From NCBI GenBank assembly GCA_965178125.1, contig OZ237751.1:434001-498000 (forward strand): a stretch of 64,000 bases of DNA, read 5' to 3'. Of this stretch, positions 5,566 through 27,870 are shown one piece after another. The position numbers and the translations under genes were made by a program. Numbering within the stretch: position 1 is the stretch's first letter; each line of letters starts with the position of its first letter. Source of the DNA: Bilabrum cf. latius. Taxonomy: Eukaryota. Below the pieces are notes generated by a model. That model was given only the letters and a program-made list of their open reading frames with translations. It was not told the DNA's origin and ran no database searches.

Positions 5566-5711
5566 CGACAAAAAGTATTATAGTTTACTTTCTCAACAGT
5601 GTTGTATCCGTCAAATGCCCTTTTGTGAGGATCTCTCGTCATTTACCAAACGGCCGAGGAGGCGACAACTTCCGGTCTCGTCGCTCCGGCGCGCCGCACC
5701 CAGCCCCGTCA

Positions 5712-7206: not shown

Positions 7207-7342
7207 AGATTGTCCAGTCGATTTGCCAATGGCTGTGTATTGTTGAATTTAGTCTCCAAGCTCAAAGTCTGATTTTCCTGCCAGTGCGGAAACTACTCGC
7301 TACCTCAACCGGACGTGAACGGCAACATGACAAATAAATAGC

Positions 7343-8887
7343 ATGGCTGAAGATGCCAAGATGCTCGAGGACATGTATTTGGAAGCTTGTAAATCAGAGT
7401 CACTTCCAGCACCGCGACCCGAAGTGATTTCGGCTGCTCGCGGGCGAAGAGCAGGGTCTGCCAGTGGAGGCGACCTTGCAAGTATCCCGGCACTTTCACT
7501 AAATGGGTCGCACCACTCAAGGTTTCGCAACAGAATCAATGATGGGGACATTAGCGCTATAATTTCTACGATTCTCCCACGAGATGATGCGGTTGTCGCG
7601 ATTCTCTTGGGAGCTGATTTCAGCTGCAACCGTATTTCCGATGTCGGGGGGCTCAAGCTGGCGACTGCCGTAGCATCAGGAGCACTACGATCGCACCTGC
7701 ATCTCCGTGCCAACGATATTACCCACAAGTCGGTGGAAGCACTGGCAGACGCGCTGACATCTCCATCCTGCGACCTGCGGTCGCTAGACCTGTCTGGCTG
7801 CAACGTCGGGAAAGAGGGCGCAGTGGCGCTCGCGAATGCGATACGGAAGGGAACACCCCTGGAATCACTGCTCCTCAACGGCGCCGAGCTCGAGACGACG
7901 GGCCTAATCGATCTCCTCTCCTCCATACGAGACCTGTCGGTTGAGGCGGCCGGTGCCTCGATGGCTGGAGAGGACCTCCCCTCCGTCTCGAGCGTGCCTT
8001 CTTCCTCCTCCTCCCCCTCCGAGCCAGCAGCCGCAGCCGAGGAAGCCGCGTCCTCGGAGCTTCCCGCATCATCGGGGCACGCGACCTCGGGCTCGGGCAC
8101 TGGCACTGGCACTGGCTCGGGCACTGGCAGGGCAGGGGGGGGCGCACTTCGCCTGCGCCGGCTGGAGCTGGACAACCCCCGGCTGTTCGCGACCACCGAG
8201 GACACGACGTACCACTGTGCCAGGGCCGTGTCCCGCAACAGCTCACTGCAGTGCCTGAGCCTCGAGAAGCAGCCGCACGCCTCCAGCACAGGGGCGGAGG
8301 TGCTCGCCGCTGCGCTGGAGGAGCACCCGGGGCTGCGGGAGCTTCGGCTGGGCTGCAACCGGCTGGGGCCCGATGGTGTTGGCGCCCTGGCCCGGCTGTC
8401 CGTGGCCAACCCGCTCATCCGGAGCTATAAACTGGACTGCACCCACGGGTGCGATCAGGGGGCGGCGGCCTGGGCTGACGTGCTGGTGGCCGGGTCCGGC
8501 GCGGAGCGGCTGGACCTGCGGTCGTGCGGGATGCGAGACGGAGGCGTGTGCGGGATCTTGGAGTCGATCGCGCGCGCGGCCACGGAGGAGACGGTGGCGC
8601 GGGGGTGGCGGCTGCGGCGCGTGCTGCTATGGGGGAACGAATTCGGCCCTCGGTCGTGCAAGATGGCGGTGAGTCTTTTCGAGGCGGGTGCTCTGGTCCC
8701 AGTGGGGGACGCTGGCAGTGGCGGGGCTGGGGCTGGGGCTCGGGTGTCGGGCGCGGGAGGGGCGGACGGGAAGGGGCCTGTGGGTGGCTCGTCCATGGGA
8801 AATGGCGGGGGCGCGCTGGTGCGCGTGGAGGTGGATGTGCGTCCATTCGTGGCGGACGATCGGGCGCAAGTGGCGCATTGCGCGTGA
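7343..8887 (+). CDS. LRRC34: Leucine-rich repeat protein (RNI-like), LRRC34-like, 514 aa
   Basis: Uninterrupted ORF with RNI-type LRRs (LRSLDLSGCNVGKEGA, LRELRLGCNRLGPDG). The C-terminal LLWGNEF...DVRPFVADDRAQVA resembles LRRC34. No TAG; ends TGA TGA. Confidence 0.8.
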   Translation: MAEDAKMLEDMYLEACKSESLPAPRPEVISAARGRRAGSASGGDLASIPALSLNGSHHSRFRNRINDGDISAIISTILPRDDAVVAILLGADFSCNRISDVGGLKLATAVASGALRSHLHLRANDITHKSVEALADALTSPSCDLRSLDLSGCNVGKEGAVALANAIRKGTPLESLLLNGAELETTGLIDLLSSIRDLSVEAAGASMAGEDLPSVSSVPSSSSSPSEPAAAAEEAASSELPASSGHATSGSGTGTGTGSGTGRAGGGALRLRRLELDNPRLFATTEDTTYHCARAVSRNSSLQCLSLEKQPHASSTGAEVLAAALEEHPGLRELRLGCNRLGPDGVGALARLSVANPLIRSYKLDCTHGCDQGAAAWADVLVAGSGAERLDLRSCGMRDGGVCGILESIARAATEETVARGWRLRRVLLWGNEFGPRSCKMAVSLFEAGALVPVGDAGSGGAGAGARVSGAGGADGKGPVGGSSMGNGGGALVRVEVDVRPFVADDRAQVAHCA

Positions 8888-9139
8888 TGACGACGACCTC
8901 AACAGCGGCGAGGATCTGGTGATTGCTATGCAACAGCACAATCGTACCGATACTACGTGCATATTAAACTTCGAATTGTCCAAACAGCGGCAAGTGTAAT
9001 TGCTTGATTGGCGGCGTAGCCAGTTCGGCTCGTGCAAGTCCGGTGTCCGATCCGTCCACAGAGTCTTCTGGTGGTCTCAAATCCCTCCCAGAACTAGCAA
9101 AATCCATTCTGGTAGAGTCACACAAGTGCTGGTCCACTG

Positions 9140-10336
9140 ATGGAGAGGCAGTCAGTTGGTATTCCTGTTGAGGTGATTGACCTGGTTAGCGACAGCTCTA
9201 CTGGCAGTGGGAGCGATTCAGACGAGCTTTCATGTCCCTCTCAAGCCGATAGTAGCTTTATTTATACTGAGACGGGCTCCTCTGCTAGGCTTGAGCGATT
9301 TCCCCGCAGCCTGAGGAGATCCTAGCGATCAGTTGTGGCTGCCGCCAGTGGGAGGTCCCACGGACGGCAGCCAGTGCTAGCAGCAGAAAGGGGGGCTGCA
9401 TATGCCCCTGAGCAATAGAAATACATGAGCACACGCGGGGCGGGTAGTGCGAGTCTCGGACAGAAGCGGTCTCGCGCAGAGTAGGATACTGTTGAGGTGG
9501 AATCGGCTGCAATAAGCAGTTCGTGGGCATCCGATGGAAAAGGAAAGTGCGGGCGGACATCCACCTCAAGTCAACAAAGGAATCATTATAGTAAGGCAAG
9601 ACGGGGTGTAGACCTAATGCAGAACGGATCCGCTGAGCAGTCTGGGGAGCGCAAGCACGAGTGCTCCGTGTGCGGCAAGGCGTTTGGGGAGGCGGGCAGT
9701 CTCAGGACGCATATGAGGACCGTGCATCTGGGCGAGCGCAAGCACGAGTGCTCCGTGTGCGGCAAGGCGTTTGGGGAGGCGGGCAGTCTCAGGACGCATA
9801 TGAGGACCGTGCATCTGGGCGAGCGCAAGCACGAGTGCTCCGTGTGCGGCAAGGCGTTTGGGGAGGCGGGCCATCTCAGGACGCATATGAGGACCGTGCA
9901 TCTGGGCGAGCGCAAGCACGAGTGCTCCGTGTGCGGCAAGGCGTTTGGGGAGGCGGGCAGTCTCAGGACGCATATGAAGACCGTGCATCTGGGCGAGCGC
10001 AAGCACGAGTGCTCCGTGTGCGGCAAGGCGTTTGGGGAGGCGGGCAGTCTCAGGACGCATATGAGGACCGTGCATCTGGGCGAGCGCAAGCACGAGTGCT
10101 CCGTGTGCGGCAAGGCGTTTGGGGAGGCGGGCAGTCTCAGGAGGCATATGAGGACCGTGCATCTGGGCGAGCGCAAGCACGAGTGCTCCGTGTGCGGCAG
10201 GGCATTCAGACACGCAACCCACATAAAGAACCAAATGGGAATGGTGCTGTCAATCGTGCCTTTTTGGAGACACCGTCCTAGAAGAGCTGCCTGTGGTTCA
10301 TGCTTCTTACCAGGTGCCGGCCAATGTGTCACTTAA
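9140..10336 (+). CDS. C2H2 zinc-finger protein with 6 complete near-identical fingers and 1 degenerate finger, about 398 aa
   Basis: ORFs 9140 and 9497 share a frame and are joined through 3 TAGs. Repeat unit ERKHECSVCGKAFGEAGSLRTHMRTVHLG; N-terminal EVIDL (SIM-like). Ends TAA. Confidence 0.85.
9647..10207 (+). repeat. Coding 87-bp tandem minisatellite (zinc-finger units)
   Basis: Units start at 9647, 9734, 9821, 9908, 9995, 10082 and 10169 (the last is partial). They are nearly identical at the nucleotide level. Confidence 0.97.
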
Positions 10337-10669
10337 AGCGGGCGCGCGCGGGCTGAGCCCAGCTCCTCACTTCTCGTGAGGAATACTTTATGCCGGCTCA
10401 ACGCAAATAATTTTCGATGGCATAGCCTTAAATGTTCAAATAGTTTCACATTGTCGCGGTTGGGTGCGTGTCTAGCCACCAGTGCGGCTAACCTTGGGAT
10501 CCGCGCTCTCGCTGTTCAAAATGTTTGGGTCCCTTCCTGGCGCTGCTCAACTTCTTTCCGTACACGTGGTCTCTACTCCATGGACCTCATTCATTGTCGG
10601 ATCTGCATAGTAATTAGTTCTCTCTTTCACCGCAAACTGCATCGAAATTATCGTTCCTACTGACGAACC

Positions 10670-12097
10670 ATGGAACACGAAGACGGCGATGGGAAACTGT
10701 TTGACAAAAATCTTTGGCGTGCTGCACATACTGGGGACTTGGGGCGCGTGGTTGAGCTGCTGAAGAGGCCAAGGGCTTCGGATGCTGTCAACCGCCAGGA
10801 CGAGTATGGCACCAGCCCTTTGCATTTCGCCGCGATCGGTGGCTCTTCCGATATTTGTGATTTGCTGCTAAAGCACGGAGCCTACGTGAATTGCCACGGC
10901 AATGGCGCGACGCCGCTACATTACGCAGCGACGCGAGGACATGCGAACTGCGCACGAATTCTGATCAATGCTGGCGCGATGGTAGATGCGGTCGACTTTG
11001 CGACGGGGGACGGGCGGACTCCGCTGCATAAAGCCGCTCACAACGGCTCGTTGGAGCTCGTTGAGCTCTTGGTACAGCATTCCACAGCGATCGATGCAAG
11101 AGATGCATCGAGCAGAACGCCAGCCGAAGTCGCTTCATTACGAGGCCATGTAGCGGCGGTCCGTGCCATCGAAAAGAGAAGACTAGAACTTCAGAGGAAA
11201 GCAGTGGTGCGTAGCAGACTACCAATTCCAGAAAGTGTCACAAAACGTGACGCCCAATCGCCTGGGCTCGTACCTGCTTCAGCTCCGCCAGAAGCACTGG
11301 CCGCAGCCAAAACTTGGATCCAGACAAAGAGAGCAACAGAAAGCAGCGCCAGGGCGCTGTGTACGGAGAGCGTCGCTGCAGAATCTTCGGTCATGGCAGG
11401 GGCGGGCCCACCCCGCGGAGATGCTGGAGGTCGTGGATCAAGTGGTGCTTCTTCCCCCGTGGCGGACCACGGGCACGGGACAGGCGGCAGCTCTCCGGCG
11501 ACCCGTCAAGGTCTAAGAGAAGGCAGCATATCTGTGCTGGGCAGATGGAGTGCCCGAGCAAGTGCTCGCGAGTCGGTCGCAAGCGGTGGGACAGGGGAGG
11601 TAGTGCAACCTGCACCAGGCTGTAGTGGTGCTGCACAAGGCTCTGCCACTGCCAGTCGTGCCGGCAATGGCACGAGCACAGGCAGCACGCGAAACACACC
11701 GGCAGGCAAGGAGCCCACTGCGACCAGCTCTGGCCCTGGGCGATCAGAGCACGGAGCAGATGCTAGTGCTGCTCATGCTCACTCTGGCAGTTCCAGTTCC
11801 AAGGCCCCGCGCTGCCCAGCGTGCGGCAAGCCAGCCATGGTGCTCCAGCCGCTTCCTCGATCCTTGGTGGATGCCATGAAATCAATCCCCGCTGCTGTGG
11901 GCGAGTCAGCGGACCATCATGCCGGGTCTGCTGACCGTGCCGCGACAGAGGCAAGGGCAGGAGGGTCTGGAGCAGCAGAGCAACGGCCCGCGGCACTGCT
12001 GGCTGACGGGATCGGGATCAGGCCCGGCACGCTCGTGTGCGGATCCTGCGTCGCCCAGGCTCGGCGTGAAGCTAGGCGGGCCCTCGGCATATCGTGA
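10670..12097 (+). CDS. Ankyrin-repeat protein, 475 aa, with a low-complexity C-terminal half and a possible split CxxC...CxxC zinc site
   Basis: Ankyrin repeats GTSPLHFAA, GATPLHYAA, GRTPLHKAA and SRTPAEVA; CPAC...CGSC near the C-terminus. Ends TGA. Confidence 0.88.
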   Translation: MEHEDGDGKLFDKNLWRAAHTGDLGRVVELLKRPRASDAVNRQDEYGTSPLHFAAIGGSSDICDLLLKHGAYVNCHGNGATPLHYAATRGHANCARILINAGAMVDAVDFATGDGRTPLHKAAHNGSLELVELLVQHSTAIDARDASSRTPAEVASLRGHVAAVRAIEKRRLELQRKAVVRSRLPIPESVTKRDAQSPGLVPASAPPEALAAAKTWIQTKRATESSARALCTESVAAESSVMAGAGPPRGDAGGRGSSGASSPVADHGHGTGGSSPATRQGLREGSISVLGRWSARASARESVASGGTGEVVQPAPGCSGAAQGSATASRAGNGTSTGSTRNTPAGKEPTATSSGPGRSEHGADASAAHAHSGSSSSKAPRCPACGKPAMVLQPLPRSLVDAMKSIPAAVGESADHHAGSADRAATEARAGGSGAAEQRPAALLADGIGIRPGTLVCGSCVAQARREARRALGIS

Positions 12098-12607
12098 TTG
12101 CTGGGCCTGGCGCACCCCGCGACGGTCATCACACGTGCGGCCATCGCCATTTGGACACCTCCCTCCCAGTTGGAAGACTCTCCCCTGGGCCGCTTGGATT
12201 GGATGCTGCATGCAACGGGGGGAATCTTTGCGACTCGGTGGGTAGTAACGCATAGAGACAGAATTGGGCGCGGGGCTGCTGCCAGAGGTATCACTGCGTG
12301 CGTCGCGGCGCATCGCCATTAACCATTAGTCCATTCGTATGCCGCGGCGCCGCTTGAAGGGCGAGTGTTCGTGGATCTTGGCGACTGGCGGGAAAGCCGG
12401 GGAGTTAGCTGTCTTCGGTCCTCAACGGATTCTTGATGATATAGGTACGCATTCACGAGTGGTGATTGTTTTCGAGGGGTGTGTCTCGTCCCTCGTCGAC
12501 TGAGATGGATGAACGGAACCTACTTGAAATTTCGTCACCCAATTTTGACAGGAGCCGCTGCGCGATCGATCTGCTTCTCGTTGTCTTATCGTGGTACAAT
12601 TGCGACC

Positions 12608-14764
12608 ATGGGCGCCATATTAGCGGTGATGGGCGATCCAATATCGATATACCGCGTCAGCGGGTCCAAGGAATGGGGATCGCGCGGTTCAAAGGTACTG
12701 ACTTGCACCTTGGTCTTTGTCGGATTGCTTGGGTGTGTGCTGTCCCAGTTTGCGCTCAAACCGAGATAGGGAACTCGTTCATGCGCTTCAACAGCGCCTT
12801 GGGGAGACGATGAAGTCTAGAGCCTGTCTATAGGGTGTTATGAACTCTCAGATGCGGTGCCTACGCTCAACGAGGATGACGGCGGCGTTTCTCTTGAGGC
12901 ATTTGCGCAGGCCACAAGTGGCCTCAGTGCTTTGAGTCGGAATGGAACAACTACATTTAAAGAGCAGATTGAGTCAGAATTCCTGACTTCGGACACGACT
13001 AGGTACGTAGAGGTCATTGACCAGCAGGCTGGCAACCTCGCGAATACGGCTATCACACTGAGTTGCTTTGCTATCATTGTCGGTGGGGCTTGGTTGTTTA
13101 CCTCAAACCGGCTAGTCAGCCACACCACTTCAACTAGGGAAGATTTTGACGCCTTTGACGGCGAGTATTTGATCATTTTTGAGGTCATTCCTCGTTGGTG
13201 GTTTCGGTTCATGCTTCACGCGCTGTTCATCCCCGTAACTCGCTTAGTGCCATCCGTACTTGAAGTAGATTATAACGACGACAGGGGAGGGGGCGACCCA
13301 GAGGAGGACGTTGTGGTTGGCGTTCGGCTCGATGGATTTCCTGGCGGCAATGCCGGCGACTATTGGGCTAAAGGATGGTACGGCGTCGCTGCGGTTTGCG
13401 GGCTCCTTTTTCTTGCGGGCGTGTGCTGTTGCATGCAAGCTGATGATGAGTCAATGGCGGTGGTAGGATTGGTCGGCCTGGGCGTCCTTGGCACGTTCGG
13501 CACAATGCTCGCTCTCACAGGCACGATGCTCATGGCCGACGGCCCGCAGACGGCGCTAGACTGCGCCATGGTGCCTTCTTTCCAGGCGTTCGATGGCCTG
13601 GGATCGCCGGGTGGTGGTTCCATTCGATTTATGATGGTAGCCATCGACGTGCTGCAGGTGCTGCTGTGCCTTGGCTTCGCCCTCAGCGTGCTCCTCGAGC
13701 TCATGGCACTGGCGGGCGTCCGGCCCGCCTGCCTAAAGCAGGAAGGGGACGACACCCTGCCTTTTTGCTGCGAAGGATAGCCGCCAATAGACGAAGACCC
13801 TCACGATGTGAGTGAGCCTGGATCCGAATCTGATTCGGAGCATTCCGGCGGCGGGAGAGGGAGAGGCAGAGGCAGAGGCAGAGGCAGGGGAATGCGGAGG
13901 CAGGGCTCGGGAGGAGCTAGCGGCAGCTCTGGAGGCATGATGTCACCGCCCTCGGGGGCTCCTCCCCGCGGCCCAGATGGGGATGGGGATGGGGATGGGG
14001 ATGGGGATGGGGATGGGGATGGGGATGGGAGAGCATCAATGGGATTGTTCGGGGGTGAGGACGAGAGCGATGACGAGGAGGGACACGGGGAACCTTCGCT
14101 GTTCCCCCCCACCCGTGGAACCTCGGGGTAGGACCAGGGTGGCCGCGGGTGGTCTTCTGACAGAGCAGGAAGAGCAGGAAGAGCAGCTGCAGCTGGGGCT
14201 GGGGCTGGGGCTGGATCAGGCACAGGCGGGACGATGGTAGCCCCTCCTGCGCCTGTCCCGAGAGCACCGCCACCCCCCTACACGGCCGCCATGCCGATGC
14301 CCCCCAGGCCACCAGCAGCCCCTGTGAGCCCCATGGCCCCCAGGCCACCAGCAGCCCCTATGAGCCCCCACCCGGGGACAGGGGCAGATTTTCAAGGTAT
14401 TGAGCTCACCGATCTTGGAGGGGCAGGGGGCGAAGCAGCGCACAACACCCCCTACCAGCACGTCAACCCGTACGCGCAGCAGCAGCAGCAGTAGCAGCCC
14501 GGTGCTTATGGTCATGGGCATGGTGCCGGTGGTGCTGCTGTTGAGTGGGGATTGGGCCATGGTGCAGGCACCGGTGGAGCCGTGGCGTACGACCCGTACA
14601 CCATGTGGGGTGCCGGGCATGGGCAGGTGCATGGGCATGGGCATGGGCAGGGGCATGGGCATGGGGATGGGGACGGTGGCCTGGATGTGGTGAACCCCTA
14701 CCTGGCTGCAACTGGCGAGAGCGGCGGCACGCAGCCGAGATCCAACGCCGGGGGCTATGTGTGA
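12608..14764 (+). CDS. Hypothetical multi-pass membrane protein with a long low-complexity (RG, DG, P, Q, GH) C-terminal tail, about 718 aa
   Basis: ORFs 12479, 12857, 13808, 14234 and 14552 are one frame joined by 5 TAGs. Several hydrophobic segments (e.g. YGVAAVCGLLFLAGVCCC, VVGLVGLGVLGTFGTMLAL, VLQVLLCLGFALSVLLELM). Ends TGA; the start is uncertain. Confidence 0.7.
13976..14029 (+). repeat. (GATGGG)n hexamer microsatellite encoding (DG)n
   Basis: About 9 consecutive copies, directly visible. Confidence 0.9.
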
Positions 14765-14937
14765 CATAAGCCAGGTGCACTCGTAAGACCTGGCACCTAT
14801 TTTTAAGATTATTCTTAGGATTGGAACAGGTCGTGGTTGCGACCGCTTTCAGGCGCTGGCTGACCATTCTTGCGACCACTAGGATATCGATACTTACTTT
14901 ACTGATTCATCTTGGATTAGCAAACAGATATGACACA

Positions 14938-17900
14938 ATGAGTTCCAATCATGACAAAGAGGCAGCAGAGGGTGCGATCGGCGCATTTAACTCCACACGT
15001 AGCACCAAATCAAGGCGTGGCCGTATCGTGCTGTTCGGTGACCGACCACCGCAAGCTCCCCCGAGCGAATCCAGCATTTCTAGCCATGGGAGCTTGGACG
15101 AATTGGATGCCTTTCGCGCAGCTGCAGGTAGCATGGCATCACAGCCCGGGGGCGTTTCGTCGGCGGATGATGCTGCGAGCGGCCAACGCACAACTGCACA
15201 TGTGCAGCAAGCTGCCGCTGCACTCGTTGCTCCGAGCCCAAAACCTGCCAGCCTTGCTTCATTTGCTGGGATCACGTCAAGGGTGGCAATGGCTGCTGCT
15301 AGGGCAAAGGCACAGGTACGCAAGCGACGTCGCCGGGCCTCCCTTGGAGCTGACGTCTCGGACGAGAGCGATAGTGATAACAAGCACAGAGATGAGGAGG
15401 CTGAAGACGACGACGCGGAAGAAGAAAGTGAAGACGAGGAAGAGTACCTGACTTCGTCGTACGATGCTCCAGCCTGCGATGGGAAAGGCAGCAAACTCAC
15501 AAGAACGGGCACGGAAACGCCACAGCCTCCAGCGACAGCGCGCGGAGGCGACGGGACAGAGAGAGAAACTGCAGGCGCCGATAAAAGATAGACTGCGGCT
15601 GGAACGTCTACCATGCGTAGAGGGTCTGCGACAGACACGCGCCGCCTGCTGCCGCCCCCGCCCTCGCGCCCGCTGGCACCTGACGGCACCAGCGCTGCGA
15701 GCCGAGGCAAGGGCCATCAGGCGTCGGGCAACCGACGGGACTCCAACGCAGACAGCCAAGCTTCGGGCCACGGTAAGCTAGGCAGTGGTTCCAAGAAGCG
15801 GCGGAGCTCTGGAAGGCGCTCCAGCCTCGTGTACGGCAGGAGGCGCAGGCGGTCTAGCGCGGCCTCTCGGCATCATCGCCCGACGGTGAGCACGACCCTC
15901 GCGACGATGAGCGAGATGAAGATCAAGTTCGCGCTGATGGGGGGCACGGGTGCCAAGCGCTTCCGGAGGCACAGCAGTGGCAGCGGGGGGTCATCCTCGG
16001 ACGAGGAGGCTCACGCTGAGGCGATGTCCTCTGGTGATGAGGAGGACAGCGAGGCCGAGCTGGAGTCTGATGAGGAAAGCAGCGACGACAGCGACATCGA
16101 GGAGGCCGCGAACGCCATCCGGGCCGTCGCTCGGGAGGACGAAGGGGAGCAAGGGGGCGAGGATGGAGATAGGGGCATGACCATGACCAGCGGGTCGTCG
16201 ATGTCGAGCATGCACAGCACGGCCAGCGGAGGAGCGAGCGACGGGCTCATGGCGTCCCTGCTTGGGGCGTCCCAGGGCAGCCTCAAGGGAGCTGGGGCGG
16301 CGGATGGGGGCGATGGTGATGAAGAAGAGGAGGAAGTCGGTGAGCTGGACCTGGAGACGCTAAGGAACACGATGAGGAACGCAGGACACAGCACGGAGCA
16401 AGGATCTGGTGGGGCGGCACCGTCAGGGGCCCATGGGTAGGTGCACGACCAGGGAACAAGGGGTGGTGCGGGCGCTGGCAGGGCGGTCAATGGGCGCGCT
16501 TCGCCCAATGGTTTGGCGTCTGTGGCAGCAGCCACGCAGGACACAATTGACGGAGCTGGCTTGGCAGCGGATGGCAACGAGGAGGTGGATGAGACTGCGT
16601 CCGTGATGCTAACTGCCAGGGGTCCGCCGTACGATGGAGAGGGCAACGAGGGGGGCGAAGACCAGTTCAAGCTGCTCCAGCAGCAACTGGCAGCACGGGA
16701 GGCGAGCGAGGCAGAGAAGGCGAACCAGTTCGTCATCGGTGGCCAGCTGGTGGTGGACAGCAGCAGTCACCAGGCCTCCCACAACGACGACGGCCTCAAC
16801 TCAGTGTCTCAGATAGAGAACAGCCTGTCCATCGCTCCATCAAACCGTAGCTTGGTGTCAGGGGAGGATGGGGAGAGCGCGCACGGGGAGGTGCCGCGAC
16901 CATATCCACCCGGACAAGGGAGGGGACAAGGGAAGTACAAGGTTCGGTCGCTGAGCGACGAGGACTCGCCTACCATCCCCGAGGACACGCTCAACATGGC
17001 GAGAGAGATCAATGCGGGCGGTACCATCCTTAGGGCATTAAGAAAGAGACGGAGGGAGTCCATGGCGAACGCGCAAGAACAGGTAACTGCTGCTGGTGCG
17101 CGAGGCGCAGAGCTCGCAAGCGGTAGTGCTGGTGCTTTGGACACCACGGCTGGGTCTGGGGTTGGGAGTAGCTCGCCAGAAACAAAGCAATCCGATGGAA
17201 CAGGCGGCAAGGCTTCGCAGAAGGGGTCGCTCGACTCAACCTCTACCGAAGTGAAGAACAAGCCCATCGTGGCGGCTGGCCAGGACAGCCACCAAGCCAG
17301 CGCCTCAGCAGCTGTCAACAGTAGCAATACTGCTGCCTTGTCAGCGGGGTAGAAGCTGATGCAGGCTGCAACTGGTGGCAAGCAGAGCAAAGACAGCCGC
17401 AAGTCGCGCTTCTCGTTCAAGGATGTGGTGACCGCGGCCCGATTGATGAAGAAGGAGAGGAAGAGGAAGAAGAAAGAGAAGGAGAAGCGGCGGAGAAAGC
17501 GCCGCAAGAAGAAGAAGAGCCCGCAAGAGATGTACCCATACGGCTGCAACGGCTCGCAGTGCCACCACGACATGGCAGTGAGGCTGCAGGTTGCTAGAGA
17601 CAGTCCATGGTTTCAGTGGACCATCGTGATTTTCATCCTGCTCGCAGGTATACAGAGCGGCATGCAGCTGTACTCGCTGCCCAGCGGCCTTGTCGATACT
17701 CTGAATATCGTCGATTTTGTAGTCACGGCTGTCTTCACCGTCGAGCTTGTGCTCAAGGTGCTGGCTGAAGGGAACGAGCCCTGGATGTTCTTCCTGCACG
17801 AGGACGGGTGGAACGTGCTGGACACCGTGATCGTGCTTGCCTCCTACGTGCCTTACATCTTGCTGGCCACCGGGCAGGATGTAGCTGGCGACGGGGACAG

Positions 17901-20900
17901 TACGGGGGCTTTGGCCACCCTGGTTGTGCTGCGTATGGTTCGGCTCGTGCGACTCGTTCGAGTCGTCCGCGTCTCTCTCAAGCTGCGGACGCTGGTGTCT
18001 GGGCTGGCGCAGTCGGTGTGAGTGATGCCCCGATGCCATCGTTCCTAGGTTTAATTCCATTGTCGGTTGCATGCGCGTGCTGTTCGTCACGACCTGCCTT
18101 ATTTAATCCCGCCTGTCCTCCGTTTCTCTTCCCTGCGCAGATCGTCGATCGGGTATCTGAGCCTGCTCATGCTGCTGCTTTTCTTCGTGTACGGCGTGCT
18201 AGGGGTGAGCCTGTTCCGACGAAATGACCCGTTCCACTTCGGAGACCTTATCACGGCCCAGATGACGCTGTTCCGCATGGCGACGGGAGAGGACTTCAGC
18301 AACATCATTTACATCGCTGCGCTCGGCTGCGACTCATACAAAGAGTACGATTTCCTGCCCGTCGAGTGCGACTCGCCTGACCCTTAGCCGACAGTGGCGA
18401 TGCTGTTCTTCGTGACCTTCTAGGTGGCAGCCAACATAGTCGGTCTCGGCCTGGTGATCGGTGTGCTGGTCAGCTCCGTGGCGGAGGCGCAGGAGCTCCT
18501 GGAGCAGGAGATTCGAGAGGAAGAAGCGGAGAATCAGCAGAAGCTCCGTAAGCTGCTAGGACTCGCCGATGATGCCAACCAGGGGCAAATCAAGCAGAAG
18601 CTGGACGAGAAAATGACCGGCAAGCTGGAGTCCATCTCTTCTGGTCTCAACGACGCTCTGATCCTGCTCGACAGCATGTACGACGCGCACCAGGAGATCG
18701 AGACCAGCACGATGATTCTCAGCGCGATCAGCGGCCAGGGCGCGGATGCCCTGCAGCACGCCACGGAGGACGCCGAAATGCAAGCCAGCCAAAAGACTCA
18801 GGCGATCATGCACACAATCAGCAAAGCCGTGACGGCGCAGGGGGCGAGGGAGCAGGCTGGTCACCAGAGCGACGGGGCGGCAGACAGCTACAGCTACCTG
18901 CCCACATCTGCGGATGCACCTCGTCCCACGGTGGGGGCAGGCATCGCAGGAGCAGCAGCGGCGGCTGTACGCCTGCGTGCCATTCGCAGCGGCTTGGGCA
19001 GCCAGAAGCTGGGTGCAGGGGCTGCCGGTAGCAGTGCAATCGCCCGCACAGCTGCCCTGCATGAGCACGAGGAGGCCAGCCAGCTCAAGAGGAACTCCAG
19101 CGGGCTGTGGGGTGCCGTGCGCGGTGTGTGGGGTGCAGTGAGCAACGGTTTCAACTCGCAGAACCGGGTTGTGCCTGGCGTGGCCGGCGGGTCGCCTGGA
19201 GCCATCGAAGGCGGTGTTACAGCCGGTGCCGGTGCCAGCAGTGGCGCAGAGTCACCCCAGCCAGCAGGTGCAGATGCAGCGGCACCCAAGGCGGCTGCTG
19301 CTCAGCTGCTCGGCGTGCTGCAAAGCATGAGGGGAGGGGCCATGTCAGCGAGCGCGAAGAGGTTGCAGACCGACGCGATGCTGGCCATGCGCGCCTCGAG
19401 CGGGTCGAGTCCTGCGAGCGGTGCGAGTGCACCCGGGCAAGGTGGTCCTGGCTTGAGTTTGGCCAACGATGCCGCTTCTGAGGTGTCTTCTACCGCTGGC
19501 GATGCCATGTCTGCGGTGGCAGATGCCCTGATGCGAGAAAAGCTCAAGAGATAGAAGAGGTGCGCATCGCAAGAGGCGGATGGCGGCGGTGCTATGGGTG
19601 GTGCTGGTGGAGCTGGCGCTGGGGTGAAACTCGTCGGCGCGGGCGACTCCCCTCCCGTCGCGGAGTACTCTAGAGGCTCCAGGCGAGGAAGCAATTCGTC
19701 CGGGGGGTCTTCCATGGGATCAGGCACCGTCCGCTCGATCAAGGATGCGAACAGCCTCAACCTGCCCGGGAAGCCCGCCCCTACCGGCAGCGCCGGACTC
19801 ACCATGCAGTCTTTGATGGCCGCTGGAGGAGGCGCCGGGTCACCATAGGGCGGCGGCATGTCTCCAGGCCTGGGCCTTCGCGCCGCGCAGCTGGGGCTGG
19901 AGCGCGTGGCCGAGATGCTTCTGTCCAAGGCCACCAAGAAGAAGAGATCCCACTGGGCGAGGGCAGCGGAGCTGTCTGCGTCGTTCCACAGGACAAGGAG
20001 CGGCACTGCGAGCATGATGGGGGGCGGTGGTGGAGCGCCCCAAACACCCGGCTCCAGGTTCGCGCAGGCTGTGCTAGAGGCCAGGAGCGATCATGGTGCG
20101 GCGGCAGGTAGCCTGGGTTTCCCTGCTGCTGGTTTCCCGGCGACGCAAGGCCCTGCTAGCGGGCGACCGAGCCTTGTTCTCCGGAAGGTCCCCACAAGCC
20201 CGCCTGCCCGACATGGCAGGAATTCGAACAATGGGTCTCTGGCTGGACGGATGCCCCCGGGAGGGTCCCCTGGGCGGGCCGGAGGGATGGGGTCAATGGT
20301 GGGGGGCTCAGGTGGAGAGGGGGCGACCCAGGGCCAGTCACCGCTGCGTTCGGTGCAATCGAATGCGGACGTGGCTGCGCTCCAGCGGGCCGCGAACGCC
20401 GTGTCTGGGGCATTCGGCGGCAGGGAGCGGCGGGGGAGCGGTGCCTAGGGAACACCGAGCGCCCGGTCGGGGTACCCCCGCGGCTCCGCCAGCGGAGATG
20501 CAGCATAGGCACGGGGCGGGCAATTGCATCAGCACCAGCACTAGCACTAGCACGACGACAACACCATCTCTGGTACGACGGCACTCCCGGCCGCTCGGGC
20601 TGCAGCGGCCGGTGCGCAGTTCGCGGTGTCTTCCGATGAGTCGGGCACGCGCCCGCGGTCCATGTCAACGACGGGGATGGCGTGGTCTAGCTCGAGGAAG
20701 AGGCTAGTGCCAGCGGGGCCCAGCAACGAGCTGCCCGATGGCAGTGGGTCTGGAGAACACGGCGATGGTGGTGGTGGTGTTGGGAAGGGGGGGGGCGTGG
20801 GGGTGCCCGACCTGTCAAGCATCGTGGGTCGCGCCCGTGCCGCCTCTGCCTCCCCCATTGTTCCCCCAGCCATGCGGGCGAGATCCGACGGAGGAGACCA

Positions 20901-21609
20901 CCGGTCGTACGGGAGCGGCTCCAATTCCGGTTACGCGGGTGCCGCGTCGCCGGTGCCGCAGGGGGGCCACGACGGGACGTCGGTCATCAGCCACGCGCAG
21001 TCGACTCCGTCGGGGTCCGGGCATCGCACGCTCCGGAATGCAGCTCTCGAGAGAGCCCTGCAGAAAGCAAGGCAGGCGAGGCAGAACATCAGCGCGGTGC
21101 AGCATCTGGGCCACGGCTTCGGCTCCAAGAAATCGTTCCGATGGGACCGGGACAGTGACAAGGCCAGCGTGGCGCACGCGGCCCGCATCCTCCTCGAGGG
21201 CAGGCGGTCGGGCACGCCATCCTCGGTGCAGTCAGGGGTGACGGCGGGTTTGAGGGGCGGGGGGGCGCTGCAGAATGCGGTTGCGGCTTTCTCGTCCTCC
21301 TCGAGGGGCGGCGGGTAGGGTGCAGTGCACGGTGCTGCGAGACCGACAGCTGTGGCAGCCACCTCGCCGCTGGCCAGGGGGCTGGCAGTGGCTGTGCCTC
21401 GGGAGGGTCCCGGCCAGGCGGACGAGTCAGGGGACTCGTCACACGGCCCTTCGGGCTCCTCTGCGGCGGTGCGGAGCACGGGCCATGGGAGCAGCCCGGG
21501 GCGGCCGCGCAGGCGCATCAGCGCGTTTGGCGCTGCGGTGCCGGCGTCTGAGCTTGGCCTCGGAATCGCGAGACCGCGGGGGGATTCTTCGCCGCATGGT
21601 GGAGAGTAA
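14938..21609 (+). CDS. Single-domain (one 6TM unit) voltage-gated cation channel, BacNav/CatSper/EukCat-like, in a mostly disordered protein of about 2180 aa; intron 18018-18140
   Basis: One frame with 12 TAGs. S1 SPWFQWTIVIFILLAG; S2 VFTVELVLKV; S3 GWNVLDTVIV; S4 LRMVRLVRLVRVVRVSLKLR; S5 IGYLSLLMLLLFFVYGVLGVSLF; pore NDPFHFGDL...TLFRMATGEDFS; S6 AMLFFVTF*VAANIVGLGLVIGVLV; then a coiled coil. Ends TAA. Confidence 0.88.
18018..18140 (+). other. Spliceosomal intron (123 nt) in the channel gene
   Basis: GTGAGT...pyrimidine tract...GCGCAG. Removing it eliminates an in-frame TGA and joins the S4-S5 linker (LAQSV|SSIGY). Confidence 0.88.
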
Positions 21610-21760
21610 ACAAAGCACGGTCATTCTTGTAGCAATGTTGAAGTTTTACTGACCGAAGCGGCAGGGTATTCGCGCAATGGGATACCTCGTGACAAATGTA
21701 GTGTGAGTATCTAGTTCAAGCGGCAACCGACCGCTGTTGCTGCCGCAGTGCCACGCATCG

Positions 21761-22277
21761 TCACGGGAGCTGGCTCTGGCGGGCTTCAATCAGGGCAAAA
21801 GCTTCCTTCTTCCCGTTCCTAGACATCGTGTCCTCCTGCTCTACTCGGCGGGCGTAATACAGCAGCGAAGGGATCAACACCAGGGCAACGAATACCCCGA
21901 AGGCGTTGCTAGAATCCAATTTCCATTGAGAAAAGCGGTTCTCTCTGTACGTGTCGAGCTTCTGCGAGCACAAAGAGAATGAGAAGGGCAGACAAGCTGT
22001 TGCCGGGCGTGGGATACATCCATGCGGGCAGAGGCACAGCTGAATGCGAGCAACTCACCTCTACCCAGTAGTTTTTCTTAACATGTGATTCCAACATGCC
22101 CTTCGGCCCAGCCCCGTTGGCACCGAGGTAAGATTCAGGTTCATTGCCCATAACATCAGATTTGCCATTGAAATGGCGAATTCCACGGGGACTTTGGGCA
22201 GCTACCATGGTCTGAGCAGACGACCTACCAAGGACACTTCTTATGCTAATCGCACCAGCGCGCAAACCTCTTCTCAT
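21761..22277 (-). CDS. NDUFB4: Mitochondrial complex I subunit NDUFB4 (B15)-like, about 139 aa; intron 21962-22058
   Basis: The spliced product KKNYWVE|KLDTYRENRFSQWKL...TM helix (FGVFVALVLIPSLLYY) resembles plant-type B15 (KNKFIEDW..AREN...F.W plus a TM helix). The R/S-rich N-terminus looks like a mitochondrial presequence. Ends TGA. Confidence 0.68.
21962..22058 (-). other. Spliceosomal intron (97 nt)
   Basis: GTGAGT...CTCGCAG, phase 0; joins the two coding frames. Confidence 0.85.
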
Positions 22278-22431
22278 TCTGCAGTCTGCACCGTTCGAGT
22301 GCTGGAGCCCTATCCGATGATCTGGTATATGTGTTTGTAACGTGTGCTTGACTTGCCCGCTACGGCGACCAGGCCGCAACAACCCCACTACTGACGACCG
22401 CAGTGTTCTAGTATCAAATTCTCTGATTTTG

Positions 22432-25400
22432 ATGTTATACTTGCTGGCTGCCCTTGCGGGCGCCGCAATGGCCTCAAGGGATGCGAACCTCTTGTGCGAT
22501 CACACCACGGAAGAAGCACCGAGCGGTCTCTGCGACCAATTACATGAGCTGCAGGCTGCAGAAGGCGAAATAAGTGTAGTATCTGCCTCAAAAAATATTC
22601 AACTTGTGTATGGTGGTGATGATGGTGAGATGACTCAGTGTGATTCAGTGGCGCATGTGCTTGGCATCTCGATAGTTTCTGTCCGCAGCGTGCAATTGTA
22701 TCTCGCACTATGTACTAGCACGCAGGAGGGTATGTTGTGCATGGATAGGATGGATCGTCCGGGCAGTCCTTTCGGTCCGTGCCAAGTGCAGATACCACCG
22801 ATGAGGAGCTTTCAGCCTGGGCTGCATTTCGCGCCGGGTCTGGAGGCAGCGGAGCGCTGGCAATAGCCTCCGATAGAACCGGGCCAAGTCTGTTTCCCAA
22901 TGAATTTCCAGCTGAGCATGGTTCGCGAGCTGGTGGCGTCTCCGACAATGCATCGCTGAGCATGGGCCTGCTAAGGGACCGCTCGCTCACCTACACGCAC
23001 ACGCTTGTGCCGGCTCCCAACGCCAATTCCCTCCCGTTGCCGGCTTTTGTGCCCCCATCTATCGACGGAGCCCCGCAATACGTAGCCGTGGAGATATCCT
23101 ACTGGCAGCACGAGGCGAACGAGGGCTTCAGAGGGCAGCTTGCCGACGCGCGCATGCACATGCAGCTGGTCAGCCCCAGCGCACTGGAAGGGGACCGGAA
23201 TGAGCCGAACGAACACATCAACATCACCACCCCGGTGCATTCCATCGACCAAGCTGGTCTGGGCCGGGTGAACCGCTGGAGGATGGGCTCATCCTCCGCC
23301 TCCGCCTCGATCAGCCCGGCCCTAGCAGGCGACGCGACGGGCAGACAGGGCTCCTCGCAGCGCGTGGTTGAGCTGGTGCCTCGGGACGTGAACGCATCGG
23401 ATGGAAGGTTCGTGAAGCTGGCAGCGATCGCGCGGGTGGAATCCTCCTGCGACGACCGCGCCGCGACCACGAACGAGCCTGAGTGGGTGCAGCGGCAAGA
23501 GGATTCTAGGCGGGGAGGCAGGCCTCGTGGCTGCATCGTGGTGCTGACCCAGGACGCCCGCAGGCACCTATGGATGGGCCACATCACGCGCACCATCGCC
23601 TACGCGAACCTCACGATCGCTCTGCTGCGAGGAACAGCCCCTCAGAGGGGGGAGCCCCAGGACGCCCACGCCCACCACCACTATGCCCGGCTGCCCGAGC
23701 ACCCCTCCGTGCTGCAGATCCGAGCCAGGAGCTCTGACTCTGCAGCCACCTACAACGGCTTCGGCGCGTTGGGGGCGGGTTAGCCAGCGTGGCCTATCCG
23801 ACCAGCCCTGGCCGCGTGCCCCCACGACACGGCTGGGGCAGTGTCCTGGGACGCAGCAAGCACCTGGAGCAGGACTGGTGCGGCTGTCGCGGAGCTCGCT
23901 CCAGGGGGCACCCCTGCCGATTGGGCCGACGTCACGCTGCCCGAGAACACCGTGGTGCTGATTGGAAGGGGTGCCTTGACCGAATCAAATCAGATCGGTG
24001 CGAGGCTTCTGGGGACAGTGCGCGTGCCACCTGGATCTGCTCTCGTGATCGAAGACAGCGGAACCTCTGGTCTTCTCACCAGCGGGGAGCAGGATCCTGT
24101 CGACGGCACGGCAGCGTCACTCACCCGCCCGATCGGCGTGGTCATTCACCAGCGCGGCGGTACCATCGCGGGTCACGGGAACGCCCGCGTGGCTGTGGGC
24201 GGGCCGGGCTGCCGGTACAGCGGGCAGCTGCGCTGGGTGATTCACGGCAATAAGACTGCGCACGGAAATCCCACGGATGATCCCTCTTAGGACAGAAGCG
24301 CCTCACAAGTGCCCACCAAGGGCATCGTGGTGACGGGTGCCGGGAGCGCTCTGGATCTCCACGGGAGAGAGACTGCGCGCACCTGGACCTGGCTGGCGCA
24401 CTCGGCCCGGCCGGGCGACTCCGTCGTTTACCTGCAGCACCCGCTGGCCAGTGCAAAAACTGGTGACCAAATCGTGCTCACGACAAGCAGGCATAGGGAC
24501 TACTTCGAAGACACGCACGGCAACGAGGTCGCGACAGTGCAGGAGGTGCGAAGCGGCGGCTTGGAGCTGCGGCTGACCAGAGTCCTTTCCGAGATGCACT
24601 GGGCCGGCAGGGAATACCAGGCAGAGGTTGGCCTGCTGACCCGCAACGTAGTCATCGAGGGTGGAGCCGCGCCTGGCGCACTCATGGATGGAGATGACCC
24701 GGAGGGCGACCGCTTCGGAGCCCACACGATGGCTGGGTTTGACGCGGTTCTGCGCGCGGATGGGGTGCAGGTCCTGAGGGGCGGGCAGCGCAACCAGCTC
24801 GCGAGGTATCCGTTTCACATGCACATCCTCAGCGGATGGGCGGGCAACGGGTCCTACGTGCGGGGGTGCTCCGTGCAAGACTCCTTCTTCCGGGCTGTGA
24901 CTGTGCACGGGACGAACGAGGCGCACGTTGAGCGGCTGGTGGCATACAATGTGGCTGGCAATGCGGTGTATATGGAAGATGGCTTGGAGGAGCGCAACGT
25001 GATCGAGTTCAATCTCGTCGCCCGTGTGATGGCGATCGGGGCGTGGGCGGCAGGCGGCGCCCAGGCGGGGGAGCGCTTCTGCGCGGGATGTGTGACACCG
25101 AGGAGCGGATACCAGCCGTTCACGAGGTCGCAGCTGGTGCAGGGGGCTGACACGGCAGCGTCACCCTTCTACTTTCCCAACATGTACAACGTGGTGCGGG
25201 GCAATGTGGCGAGCGGGGGCTGGTCGGGTTTCTCCTTCCCAAACATGCCGCGAGCGATGGGCCTGGCAGTTGGCTCCGGCGTGTCCAACGCGCAGCCCAT
25301 CAACCGCCCGGTGTTGGAGATGCATGGCAACATCGCGCACTCGTCAGGAATGACGTGGCCCACGGGAGCGTCGATTTATCTGGGTGGTGAGCTGCAGTAC

Positions 25401-27836: not shown

Positions 27837-27870
27837 TGACTCGGAGCTGCAAGCTAGAGTGCTTTTTCGG

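What the first reader, a model, noticed from the sequence alone, without database searches (positions are those of the whole stretch)
10334..21609. UAG and UAA are uncoupled: UAA and UGA still terminate
Seen in sequence: I found no in-frame TAA in any reconstructed CDS, although CAA is common and TAG occurs about 120 times. Of 21 visible gene ends, 19 are TGA and 2 are TAA (10334 and 21607), and GC content drops right after 21609. Established knowledge: in most eukaryotic reassignments (many ciliates, hexamitin diplomonads, some ulvophytes) UAA and UAG change together. Split meanings are rare, with examples such as Iotanema (UAG=Gln), a rhizarian with UAG=Leu and a few ciliates. Inference: a table-15-like code, implying a CUA-anticodon tRNA and an eRF1 that largely ignores UAG.
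Basis: partly seen in the sequence, partly recalled or inferred. Interest (0 to 1): 0.88.

Follow-up and report, generated by a model that had tools for sequence, protein, structure and literature searches.

The report
UAG reads glutamine; UAA, UGA stop
This piece of nuclear DNA from an unidentified GC-rich protist reads the stop codon UAG as glutamine but keeps UAA and UGA as stops, a split seen in only a few other eukaryotes.

Summary
With TAG read as sense, 23 long ORFs tile the 64 kb window. They hold 123 in-frame TAG, 0 TAA and 0 TGA in 19,496 codons. They encode eukaryotic proteins such as AAR2, Myb, C2H2, ankyrin, an ion channel and a kinase.

TAG means glutamine. It sits on Gln in 39 of 40 homologues at one site, 49 of 49 at a second and 11 of 20 at a third. 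Spliced transcript contigs carry 23 of 30 checked TAGs unchanged, so this is not editing or introns.

If TAA were coupled to TAG, about 40 in-frame TAA would be expected, and none is seen (P about 4e-18). Of 21 gene ends, 19 are TGA and 2 are TAA.

A relative in metagenome contigs, 57-64% identical in protein, has TAG at the same two Gln sites. One of its genes ends on TAA.

Two corrections apply. The TGA at 18019 lies in an intron, and the TAA end at 10334 is weakly supported.

The tRNA and eRF1 could not be examined because no genome is held. The code matches Iotanema and some ciliates, so this is a new member of a known kind.

The parts
1..64000 (.). Gene-dense eukaryotic nuclear DNA, 61% GC. 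With TAG read as sense, 23 long ORFs tile it, holding 123 in-frame TAG, 0 TAA and 0 TGA in 19,496 codons.
   Evidence: Pfam
48943..48945 (-). In-frame TAG at residue 51 of the NTPase_I-T gene (48235-49095). It lies in the invariant DQP motif.
   Evidence: Gln in 49 of 49 aligned homologues, 1 gap. Also TAG at this site in the relative L002. Codon checked.
46762..46764 (+). In-frame TAG at residue 253 of the FAD_oxidored gene (46006-48108).
   Evidence: Gln in 39 of 40 homologues, Glu in 1
47584..47586 (+). In-frame TAG at residue 527 of the FAD_oxidored gene.
   Evidence: Gln is the commonest residue, 14 of 40. TAG at the same site in relative L001.
45215..45217 (-). In-frame TAG at residue 222 of the alpha-L-fucosidase gene (43640-45880).
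   Evidence: Gln in 11 of 20 homologues
14938..18017 (+). Exon 1 of the ion-channel gene, with 3 in-frame TAG.
   Evidence: Pfam Ion_trans 2-125 at its end. Transcript contigs start at 14911-14952.
18018..18140 (+). Spliceosomal intron of 123 nt (GTGAGT...CAG). It holds the TGA at 18019 and a TAA at 18052.
   Evidence: Joint 18017>18141 in contigs of X6, X7 and X8. The X5 contig is unspliced.
18141..21609 (+). Exon 2 of the ion-channel gene, with 9 in-frame TAG. It ends on TAA.
   Evidence: Pfam Ion_trans 128-238
21607..21609 (+). TAA, the most likely stop of the ion-channel gene.
   Evidence: It is the first in-frame TAA or TGA after 1,156 open codons. An unspliced transcript contig covers it (X6, 21254-21961). 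GC drops from 72.7% to 54.5%. The downstream frame overlaps a convergent spliced gene.
10334..10336 (+). TAA ending the C2H2 zinc-finger ORF (9008-10336). It is a plausible stop but weakly supported.
   Evidence: Downstream sequence is 50.8% GC and looks non-coding. However, the 40 codons before it also score as non-coding, -0.16. No listed transcript piece covers it.
48106..48108 (+). TGA stop at a conserved C-terminus of the FAD_oxidored gene.
   Evidence: The window ends ...PPTEHC*, the relative ends ...PPTEKC* (TGA), and P0090 ends ...PPPRDAC.
21962..22058 (-). 97-nt intron of a small minus-strand gene. Its CDS is 22208-22059 plus 21961-21764, with stop TGA at 21761-21763.
   Evidence: Joint with CT..AC ends in X6, X7 and X8
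22625..22725 (+). 101-nt intron near the 5' end of the CEMIP/G8-like gene. The apparent ATG at 22710 and the TAG at 22716 lie inside it.
   Evidence: Joint in X6, X7 and X8

Best explanation
The window is nuclear DNA of an unidentified, GC-rich, gene-dense and intron-poor eukaryote. Its cytoplasmic translation reads UAG as glutamine and keeps UGA (the main stop) and UAA as terminators. This is the code of NCBI table 15.

Shown here:
- TAG is an ordinary sense codon, at 6.3 per 1,000 codons and 14% of Gln codons.
- TAG stands at conserved Gln positions.
- TAG is present unchanged in spliced transcripts.
- TAA and TGA never occur inside coding frames.
- ORFs end on TGA or TAA.
- A relative about 60% identical in protein shares the trait, including TAG at the same Gln sites. 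The reassignment therefore most likely predates their split.

Inferred, not shown: a tRNA-Gln with anticodon CUA, which pairs with UAG but not UAA. It probably arose from a tRNA-Gln(CUG) copy by one anticodon change. Also inferred is an eRF1 that has lost recognition of G at the third stop position while still recognising UAA and UGA.
For: ORF structure:
- The longest ORF is 623 codons under the standard code and 4,233 with TAG as sense. Making TAA sense adds nothing, with the longest still 623.
- The ORFs hold 123 TAG, 0 TAA and 0 TGA in 19,496 in-frame codons.
- Frame counts are TAA 0/51/64, TGA 0/296/363 and TAG 124/175/141.
- Pfam domains span TAGs in AAR2, fucosidase, FAD_oxidored, NTPase_I-T, Ion_trans, Abhydrolase_11 and Kelch.

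Amino acid:
- Gln stands in 39 of 40, 49 of 49, 11 of 20 and 14 of 40 homologues at four TAG sites.
- Over all 10 TAG columns with at least 80% occupancy, summed log-odds are Gln +3.9 bits, next Glu -6.2.

Transcripts:
- 23 of 30 in-frame TAGs between 9001 and 29000 lie in listed pieces of X6 contigs with 0 other letters. Eleven are also in X7 and 8 in X8.
- The same contigs carry three GT-AG joints.

Coding signal:
- It does not drop across internal TAGs: 0.18 before and 0.20 after, n=112.
- It drops at TGA ends: 0.26 to -0.02, n=18.

TAA:
- About 40-44 in-frame TAA are expected if TAA tracked TAG as CAA tracks CAG. None is observed, Poisson P about 4e-18.
- TGA-bounded gene frames have no TAA between start and end.

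Relative (L001/L002):
- It has 9 in-frame TAG in 1,309 codons, with TAG/TAG at two Gln sites and CAG/TAG at two more.
- Its FAD_oxidored and 'upstream' genes end on TGA at the same C-terminus as in the window.
- Its NTPase ORF ends on TAA, followed by AT-richer sequence that does not look like protein.
Against: - Only 2 ORF ends here and 1 in the relative are TAA. None is anchored by a conserved C-terminus.
- The 40 codons before the TAA at 10334 already score as non-coding (-0.16). The score before 21607 is only 0.03.
- Six of the 10 scored TAG columns are not Gln-dominated: the fucosidase signal peptide, fucosidase 530 (Val 7 of 20), and AAR2 sites with Thr/Arg, Glu, Val or Phe on top. They lie in variable or poorly aligned regions.
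- TAG is somewhat scarce near gene ends: 2 observed against 6.3 expected in the last 50 codons, P about 0.05. This could hint at residual termination there.
- Run X6, which gives most transcript cover, has no recorded library type, and the tool guessed 'probably DNA'. Its spliced contigs argue for RNA, but unspliced DNA may be mixed in.
- The sample is one 64 kb window plus 4.6 kb of a relative. No tRNA or eRF1 was seen.
Confidence: 0.85

Rival explanations
1. UAG has a dual, position-dependent meaning. It is Gln inside genes but can still terminate close to the mRNA 3' end, as in Condylostoma, karyorelict or Blastocrithidia-type codes.
For: TAG is under-represented in the last 50 codons (2 observed against 6.3 expected) and in the last 100 codons (7 against 12.6) of 20 genes.
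Against: The depletion is borderline (P about 0.05), and C-terminal tails differ in composition anyway. No ORF needs TAG as its stop. A TAG 21 codons before the stop of gene 49233-51479 is followed by residues conserved in the relative (...AGVLAAFV.SE). Every ORF end is TGA or TAA.
Confidence: 0.08
2. Both UAA and UAG are reassigned to Gln (table 6), and TAA is merely rare because the genome is GC-rich.
For: GC3 is 0.55-0.80, so A-ending codons are the minority. The sample is a single window.
Against: A-ending partners are still common: CAA 185 against CAG 569, with a pooled NNA/NNG ratio of 0.356. That predicts 40-44 TAA, and 0 are seen. TAA lies exactly at ORF ends where GC and coding signal fall. 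Making TAA sense lengthens no long ORF into coding-like sequence.
Confidence: 0.03
3. UAG is sense but encodes another amino acid, such as Glu, Leu, Ser or Tyr as in other UAG reassignments.
For: Some TAG columns are topped by Glu, Val, Thr or Phe. Within-window paralogues pair TAG with His, Arg and Glu.
Against: The two nearly invariant columns are Gln (39 of 40 and 49 of 49). Summed log-odds favour Gln over the next residue by about 10 bits. Aligned CAG/TAG pairs occur between the two species.
Confidence: 0.03
4. The TAGs are not translated at all. They would be introns, pseudogenes, assembly errors or sites edited in the mRNA.
For: Introns do exist, and one hides a TGA and a TAA.
Against: Only three introns are seen in 20 kb, and none removes the 23 covered TAGs. 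No other letters appear in transcript contigs from two studies (three runs). Pfam domains and homologue alignments run straight through TAGs. TAG is kept at the same sites in a diverged relative.
Confidence: 0.01

Closest known systems
Nuclear code of Iotanema spirale (Fornicata): UAG = Gln, UAA and UGA = stop (PMC5304391; abstract and sections 7 and 9 read)
   Same: The codon table is the same. UAG is never seen as a terminator, and there are no in-frame UAA or UGA. The predicted mechanism is the same: tRNA-Gln(CUA) plus a change in eRF1.
   Different: In Iotanema UAA is the main stop (104 UAA against 15 UGA). Here TGA dominates (19 of 21), and the DNA is 61% GC. Nothing here ties the organism to fornicates: the one named best hit is the stramenopile Cafeteria at 52% identity, and a single-gene tree does not place it.
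Ciliates with UAG-only reassignment to Gln: Protocruzia tuzeti, Hartmannula sinica, Trochilia petrani (PMC11687900; passages read)
   Same: UAG = Gln with UAA kept as a stop (translation table 15).
   Different: Those ciliates terminate mostly on UAA: 93.5-100% of C-terminal alignments in the passage read. This window is GC-rich, carries many genes, and uses TGA as its main stop.
UAR = Gln codes (table 6): many ciliates, hexamitin diplomonads, ulvophytes, Streblomastix, Amoeboaphelidium (list from PMC11687900 passage)
   Same: UAG is read as Gln.
   Different: In those organisms UAA is Gln too. Here there are 0 in-frame TAA where about 40 would be expected.
Other uncoupled UAG reassignments: rhizarian exLh (UAG = Leu), Scotinosphaera (UAG = Ser), Oligohymenophorea sp. 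PL0344 (UAA = Lys, UAG = Glu) (PMC5304391; PMC11687900 passage; PMC10553269 abstract from listing)
   Same: UAG and UAA have different meanings.
   Different: The amino acid differs. Here it is Gln by conserved-column evidence.
Code 15 in crAss-like and other gut phages (PMC9523058; abstract from listing)
   Same: TAG is read as Gln.
   Different: Those are phages of bacteria that use suppressor tRNAs. This window has spliceosomal introns and eukaryotic nuclear genes.

Membership tests
Nuclear code with UAG = Gln, UAA/UGA = stop (NCBI table 15; Iotanema type) | In-frame UAG inside bona fide protein-coding genes | tested here: met
   123 TAG in 19,496 codons of 23 ORFs. Pfam domains and homologue alignments span them.
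Nuclear code with UAG = Gln, UAA/UGA = stop (NCBI table 15; Iotanema type) | UAG corresponds to conserved glutamine in homologues | tested here: met
   Gln in 39 of 40, 49 of 49, 11 of 20 and 14 of 40 homologues. Log-odds are Gln +3.9 bits against Glu -6.2 over 10 columns, 6 of which are not Gln-dominated.
Nuclear code with UAG = Gln, UAA/UGA = stop (NCBI table 15; Iotanema type) | UAG is present in the mature mRNA, not edited or spliced out | tested here: met
   23 of 30 TAGs lie in listed pieces of spliced transcript contigs with 0 other letters. The library type of the runs is not on record.
Nuclear code with UAG = Gln, UAA/UGA = stop (NCBI table 15; Iotanema type) | No in-frame UAA in coding sequence | tested here: met
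   0 observed against 40-44 expected. The TGA-bounded frames give a non-circular check. This covers one window only.
Nuclear code with UAG = Gln, UAA/UGA = stop (NCBI table 15; Iotanema type) | UAA marks real ends of coding sequences | tested here: inconclusive
   Two ORF ends here (10334, 21607) and one in the relative (L001 1419-1421) are TAA, with non-coding-like sequence after them. None is fixed by a conserved C-terminus, and the tail before 10334 already scores as non-coding.
Nuclear code with UAG = Gln, UAA/UGA = stop (NCBI table 15; Iotanema type) | UGA marks real ends and is never in frame | tested here: met
   0 in-frame TGA. 19 ends are TGA. The FAD_oxidored C-terminus is conserved in three species and closed by TGA in the window and the relative.
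Nuclear code with UAG = Gln, UAA/UGA = stop (NCBI table 15; Iotanema type) | UAG never serves as a terminator | tested here: inconclusive
   No ORF needs it, and a TAG 21 codons from an end is followed by conserved residues. The mild depletion near ends (2 against 6.3 expected) is unexplained.
Nuclear code with UAG = Gln, UAA/UGA = stop (NCBI table 15; Iotanema type) | A tRNA-Gln with anticodon CUA and no tRNA with anticodon UUA | not testable with these tools
   No genome is held. No tRNA lies in the window, L001 or L002. The only intron-allowing ARAGORN hit is an artefact with a 1,078-nt 'intron'.
Nuclear code with UAG = Gln, UAA/UGA = stop (NCBI table 15; Iotanema type) | eRF1 N-domain altered at residues that read the third stop base (GTS, NIKS, YxCxxxF) | not testable with these tools
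   eRF1 is not in the window, and no genome is held.

The most novel reading that the evidence does not exclude
This would be a further independent origin of the UAG-only-to-Gln code, in a so far unrecognised GC-rich protist clade. The clade has at least two members about 60% identical in protein, one known only from metagenome contigs. UGA is the main stop. In GC-rich DNA, TAG would not be expected to have become rare before reassignment. The change would then have gone through an ambiguous stage rather than codon disappearance. The scarcity of TAG near gene ends could be a trace of residual UAG termination.
Probability: 0.4. Interest if true: 0.7.

Novelty: new member of a known kind. Interest (0 to 1): 0.58.

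Why it matters
UAA and UAG almost always change meaning together. Each case where they are uncoupled shows that the decoding machinery can tell them apart. Each also offers a natural eRF1 and tRNA-Gln(CUA) pair of interest for amber-codon engineering in eukaryotes.

The non-phage cases found in my literature searches are ones whose main stop is UAA (Iotanema, ciliates). This one is 61% GC and terminates mostly on UGA. That fits poorly with the idea that a stop codon is reassigned only after AT pressure has made it rare.

DNA runs, and runs whose contigs are spliced, exist for this organism or near-identical strains. A diverged relative shares the trait. The tRNA, the eRF1 and the age of the change are therefore directly testable.

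In practice, any annotation of this genome under the standard code will cut most genes into fragments. The short database proteins P0210, P0211 and P0361 look like such fragments.

Tried and rejected
- Whole genome: none is held. TAA could not be counted genome-wide, and tRNA and eRF1 could not be searched.
- tRNA search: ARAGORN found none in the window, L001 or L002. Rfam found no family at gathering score. ARAGORN with introns gave one artefact, a 'tRNA-Ala' with a 1,078-nt intron.
- Sequencing runs: no RNA holder is listed on record. Runs X6-X8 were guessed to be RNA, and their spliced contigs support that. Contigs cannot show 3' ends, so poly(A) sites after the TAA stops could not be read. 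No listed piece covers the TAA at 10334.
- Paralogues 29737-31770 and 32103-34703 pair TAG with His, Arg and Glu, which is not decisive.
- AAR2: the four TAG columns are variable or misaligned and give no amino-acid signal.
- More sequence of the lineage: two scans of genome contigs (whole AAR2, then an alignment of window and relative) and one scan of viral contigs found nothing.
- Naming the organism: the best named hit is Cafeteria at 52% for one protein. A quick, unfinished maximum-likelihood tree of 51 NTPase sequences places the window only with its metagenomic relative (99 SH-aLRT) and nowhere else with support.
- Pfam on the two exons of the small minus-strand gene gave no family. A first try that included 31893-32091 was rejected for in-frame stops, and that reference was dropped.
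- A possible 62-nt intron at 32092-32153 would place the TAA at 32144 inside an intron and join a RanBP2-like zinc-finger exon to gene 32154-34703. It is my reading of the sequence only and is untested.
- Literature: four searches found no report of a GC-rich non-ciliate eukaryote with UAG-only = Gln other than Iotanema. Subscription journals and supplements were not searched.

Full report
WHAT THE WINDOW IS

The window is 61% GC. Under the standard code its longest ORF is 623 codons. With TAG read as sense, ORFs of 4,233, 1,731, 1,185, 1,084 and 1,053 codons appear and tile the window. Making TAA sense instead adds nothing, with the longest ORF still 623 (lists).

The ORFs encode typical eukaryotic proteins (Pfam):
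- AAR2, a Bdp1-type Myb protein, a GH18 protein, LRR, a C2H2 zinc-finger array and ankyrin repeats;
- an Ion_trans channel, a CEMIP/G8 beta-helix protein and Abhydrolase_11;
- an IBR/RBR protein, Kelch, a kinase with Arm repeats and alpha-L-fucosidase;
- FAD_oxidored, NTPase_I-T and pyroglutamyl peptidase.

No whole genome is held for this window. Everything below therefore rests on 64 kb plus what I could fetch.

CHECK OF THE OBSERVATION

In my first set of 23 ORFs I counted 124 in-frame TAG, 0 TAA and 0 TGA. The same trinucleotides in frames +1 and +2 number 175/141 for TAG, 51/64 for TAA and 296/363 for TGA. After correcting three gene models with transcript evidence, the count is 123 TAG, 0 TAA and 0 TGA in 19,496 codons, with CAG 569 and CAA 185.

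These ORFs were defined with TAA as a boundary, so I repeated the test on frames bounded by TGA alone. In the gene frames, TAA then appears only in four kinds of place:
- upstream of the first ATG;
- inside an intron (18052);
- at the two proposed ends;
- beyond the end at 21607, in the read-through extension that overlaps the convergent minus-strand gene.
It never appears between start and end. The 4,232-codon frame has 29 TAG and no TAA. The 1,730-codon frame has 6 TAG and none.

If TAA were used relative to TAG as CAA is to CAG, 40 would be expected. The pooled NNA/NNG ratio of 0.356 gives 44. The Poisson probability of seeing none is about 4e-18.

The gene ends I could define are 18 TGA and 2 TAA, plus one small spliced gene ending on TGA. 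GC falls from 72.7% to 54.5% after 21609.

TRANSCRIPT EVIDENCE AND CORRECTIONS

Public runs hold this sequence. I laid four of them on 9001-29000.

Contigs of X6, X7 and X8 come from two coded studies, and their library type is not on record. The tool guessed RNA for X7 and X8 and 'probably DNA' for X6. These contigs skip three segments:
- 18018-18140 (123 nt, GT..AG);
- 21962-22058 (97 nt, CT..AC, so a minus-strand intron);
- about 22625-22725 (101 nt, GT..AG).
A contig of X5 runs unspliced from 16453 to 27862.

Two consequences follow. First, introns exist but are few. Second, the TGA at 18019-18021 is intronic. ORFs 14821-18021 and 18067-21609 are two exons of one ion-channel gene. Their Pfam Ion_trans matches abut, at profile positions 2-125 and 128-238.

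No other letters were reported anywhere on the stretch. Of the 30 in-frame TAGs between 9001 and 29000, 23 lie inside listed pieces of X6 contigs, 11 in X7 and 8 in X8. The TAGs are therefore in the mature message and are not edited away.

WHICH AMINO ACID

I aligned four window proteins, with TAG written as X, to database homologues.
- FAD_oxidored residue 253: Gln in 39 of 40, Glu in 1.
- FAD_oxidored residue 527: Gln in 14 of 40, the commonest, and Gln in the closest homologue P0090.
- FAD_oxidored residue 334 lies in an insertion.
- NTPase_I-T residue 51, in the DQP motif: Gln in 49 of 49, with one gap. Residue 103 lies in a variable loop.
- Fucosidase residue 222: Gln in 11 of 20. Residue 530: Val 7, Ser 4. 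Residue 7 is in the signal peptide.
- AAR2: the four sites are variable or misaligned, with Thr/Arg, Glu, Val and Phe on top.

Summing log-odds over all 10 columns with at least 80% occupancy, bad ones included, gives Gln +3.9 bits, Glu -6.2 and Val -8.0. Within-window paralogues pair TAG with His, Arg and Glu, which is uninformative.

A RELATIVE WITH THE SAME TRAIT

A scan of metagenome contigs with the NTPase protein returned 80 loci. Two of them, L001 and L002, overlap at 99.8% identity. They are 56% GC and keep the window's gene order: 'upstream' gene, NTPase, then a convergent FAD_oxidored. Their proteins are 40-64% identical to the window's.

This organism also has in-frame TAG, 9 in 1,309 codons. 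TAG stands at the same two Gln sites: the NTPase DQP motif and FAD_oxidored EGC[IV]Q[YF]GRD. CAG in the window is paired with TAG in the relative at two well-aligned sites. One TAG pairs with GAA and one with GCC.

The FAD_oxidored C-terminus is ...PPTEHC* in the window and ...PPTEKC* in the relative, both closed by TGA. The more distant P0090 also ends at that Cys. The 'upstream' gene ends on TGA at the same place in both.

The relative's NTPase ORF ends on TAA. It is followed by 49% GC sequence whose in-frame translation does not look like protein. The reassignment thus most likely predates the split of two well-diverged species.

HOW SOLID IS 'UAA STILL TERMINATES'

The negative evidence is strong: TAA is never in frame. 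The positive evidence is thinner.

I used a codon-usage score trained on the other genes.
- It is flat across internal TAGs: 0.18 before and 0.20 after, n=112.
- It drops at TGA ends: 0.26 to -0.02, n=18.
- At 21607 it goes from 0.03 to -0.06.
- At 10334 it is already -0.16 before the TAA.

The TAA at 21607 follows 1,156 open codons and is covered by an unspliced transcript contig. It is followed by a GC drop and by a convergent, spliced minus-strand gene. I take it as a real stop.

The TAA at 10334 follows a degenerate last zinc finger. It may be the stop, or it may lie past an unrecognised splice or frame change. A third TAA-ended ORF (31724-32146) may be intronic.

One oddity remains. TAG is scarcer than expected in the last 50 codons of genes, 2 against 6.3. 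This is borderline but is the pattern seen in context-dependent codes. Against a dual role, a TAG 21 codons from a stop is followed by residues conserved in the relative.

MECHANISM

This part is inferred. It follows the reasoning set out for Iotanema in PMC5304391, section 9. A tRNA that reads UAG but not UAA must carry anticodon CUA. The shortest route to it is one anticodon change in a tRNA-Gln(CUG) copy. eRF1 must stop recognising G at the third stop position. Iotanema shows T32G in the GTS motif.

None of this could be tested. There is no tRNA in the window or in L001/L002, no eRF1 gene, and no genome. Three further scans for more sequence of the lineage were blank.

COMPARISON WITH WHAT IS KNOWN

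The codon table equals NCBI table 15. It is documented for Iotanema spirale, with 204 in-frame UAG in 126 genes and stops of 104 UAA and 15 UGA (PMC5304391, section 7). It is also documented for the ciliates Protocruzia tuzeti, Hartmannula sinica and Trochilia petrani (PMC11687900, passages).

Other uncoupled cases give Leu (rhizarian exLh), Ser (Scotinosphaera), or Lys and Glu (Oligohymenophorea sp. PL0344).

This case differs in composition and stop usage: it is 61% GC and 19 of 21 ends are TGA.

I could not name the organism. The only named near hit is Cafeteria at 52% for one protein, and a single-gene tree is unresolved. Four literature searches found no report of such a GC-rich non-ciliate case besides Iotanema. 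Subscription journals and supplements were not covered. The data appeared in 2025, so the code may already be known to those who sequenced the organism.

VERDICT

It is a new member of a known kind of variant code. The interest lies in its GC-rich, UGA-terminating setting and in the availability of DNA, transcript data and a diverged relative for testing the mechanism.

Noticed in passing
window 9650-10200 (gene 9008-10336): Six near-identical tandem C2H2 zinc-finger units (HECSVCGKAFGEAGSLRTHMRTVHLGERK). K-mer depth there is 10-80 times that of the flanks in all four runs, so the unit is probably multi-copy in the genome.
   Followed up: partly
window 29737-31770 and 32103-34703: Tandem paralogues, 33% identical over about 730 residues. 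Only the second has the IBR/RBR C-terminal part. Between them, 31893-32091 encodes a RanBP2-like zinc-finger motif that may be a 5' exon of the second gene, joined through a possible 62-nt intron.
   Followed up: partly
window 51370-63999: A single ORF of more than 4,210 codons runs off the window end. It has 29 in-frame TAG and only a weak TPR match, and most of it is low-complexity.
   Followed up: no
window 10672, 14911-14952: Transcript contigs begin within about 0-30 nt of the first ATG of two genes (ATG at 10670 and 14938). This hints at very short 5' UTRs, although contigs cannot prove transcript starts.
   Followed up: no
window 21254-22283: One transcript contig spans the 3' end of the plus-strand ion-channel gene and the convergent spliced minus-strand gene. 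The two stop codons (21607 and 21761) are only about 150 nt apart, so the 3' UTRs must overlap or be very short.
   Followed up: partly
window 14475-14498, 27092-27118, 28795-28823: Many false 'joints' and loose ends arise at CAG/GCA-rich low-complexity repeats (poly-Gln/Ala coding) shared between distant genes. These are assembly cross-links, not splicing.
   Followed up: partly
L001 1-3019, L002 1-3598: Metagenome contigs from a relative, 56% GC and 40-64% protein identity, with conserved gene order and the same use of TAG. The lineage therefore occurs in environmental samples.
   Followed up: yes
last 50 codons of 20 window genes: In-frame TAG is scarcer than expected near gene ends: 2 against 6.3 in the last 50 codons and 7 against 12.6 in the last 100.
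   Followed up: partly
proteins P0210, P0211, P0361 (database): Short database proteins 56-84% identical to parts of the window's AAR2 and NTPase. Where checked, they start or stop near TAG positions. They look like fragments produced by calling genes of this lineage under the standard code.
   Followed up: partly
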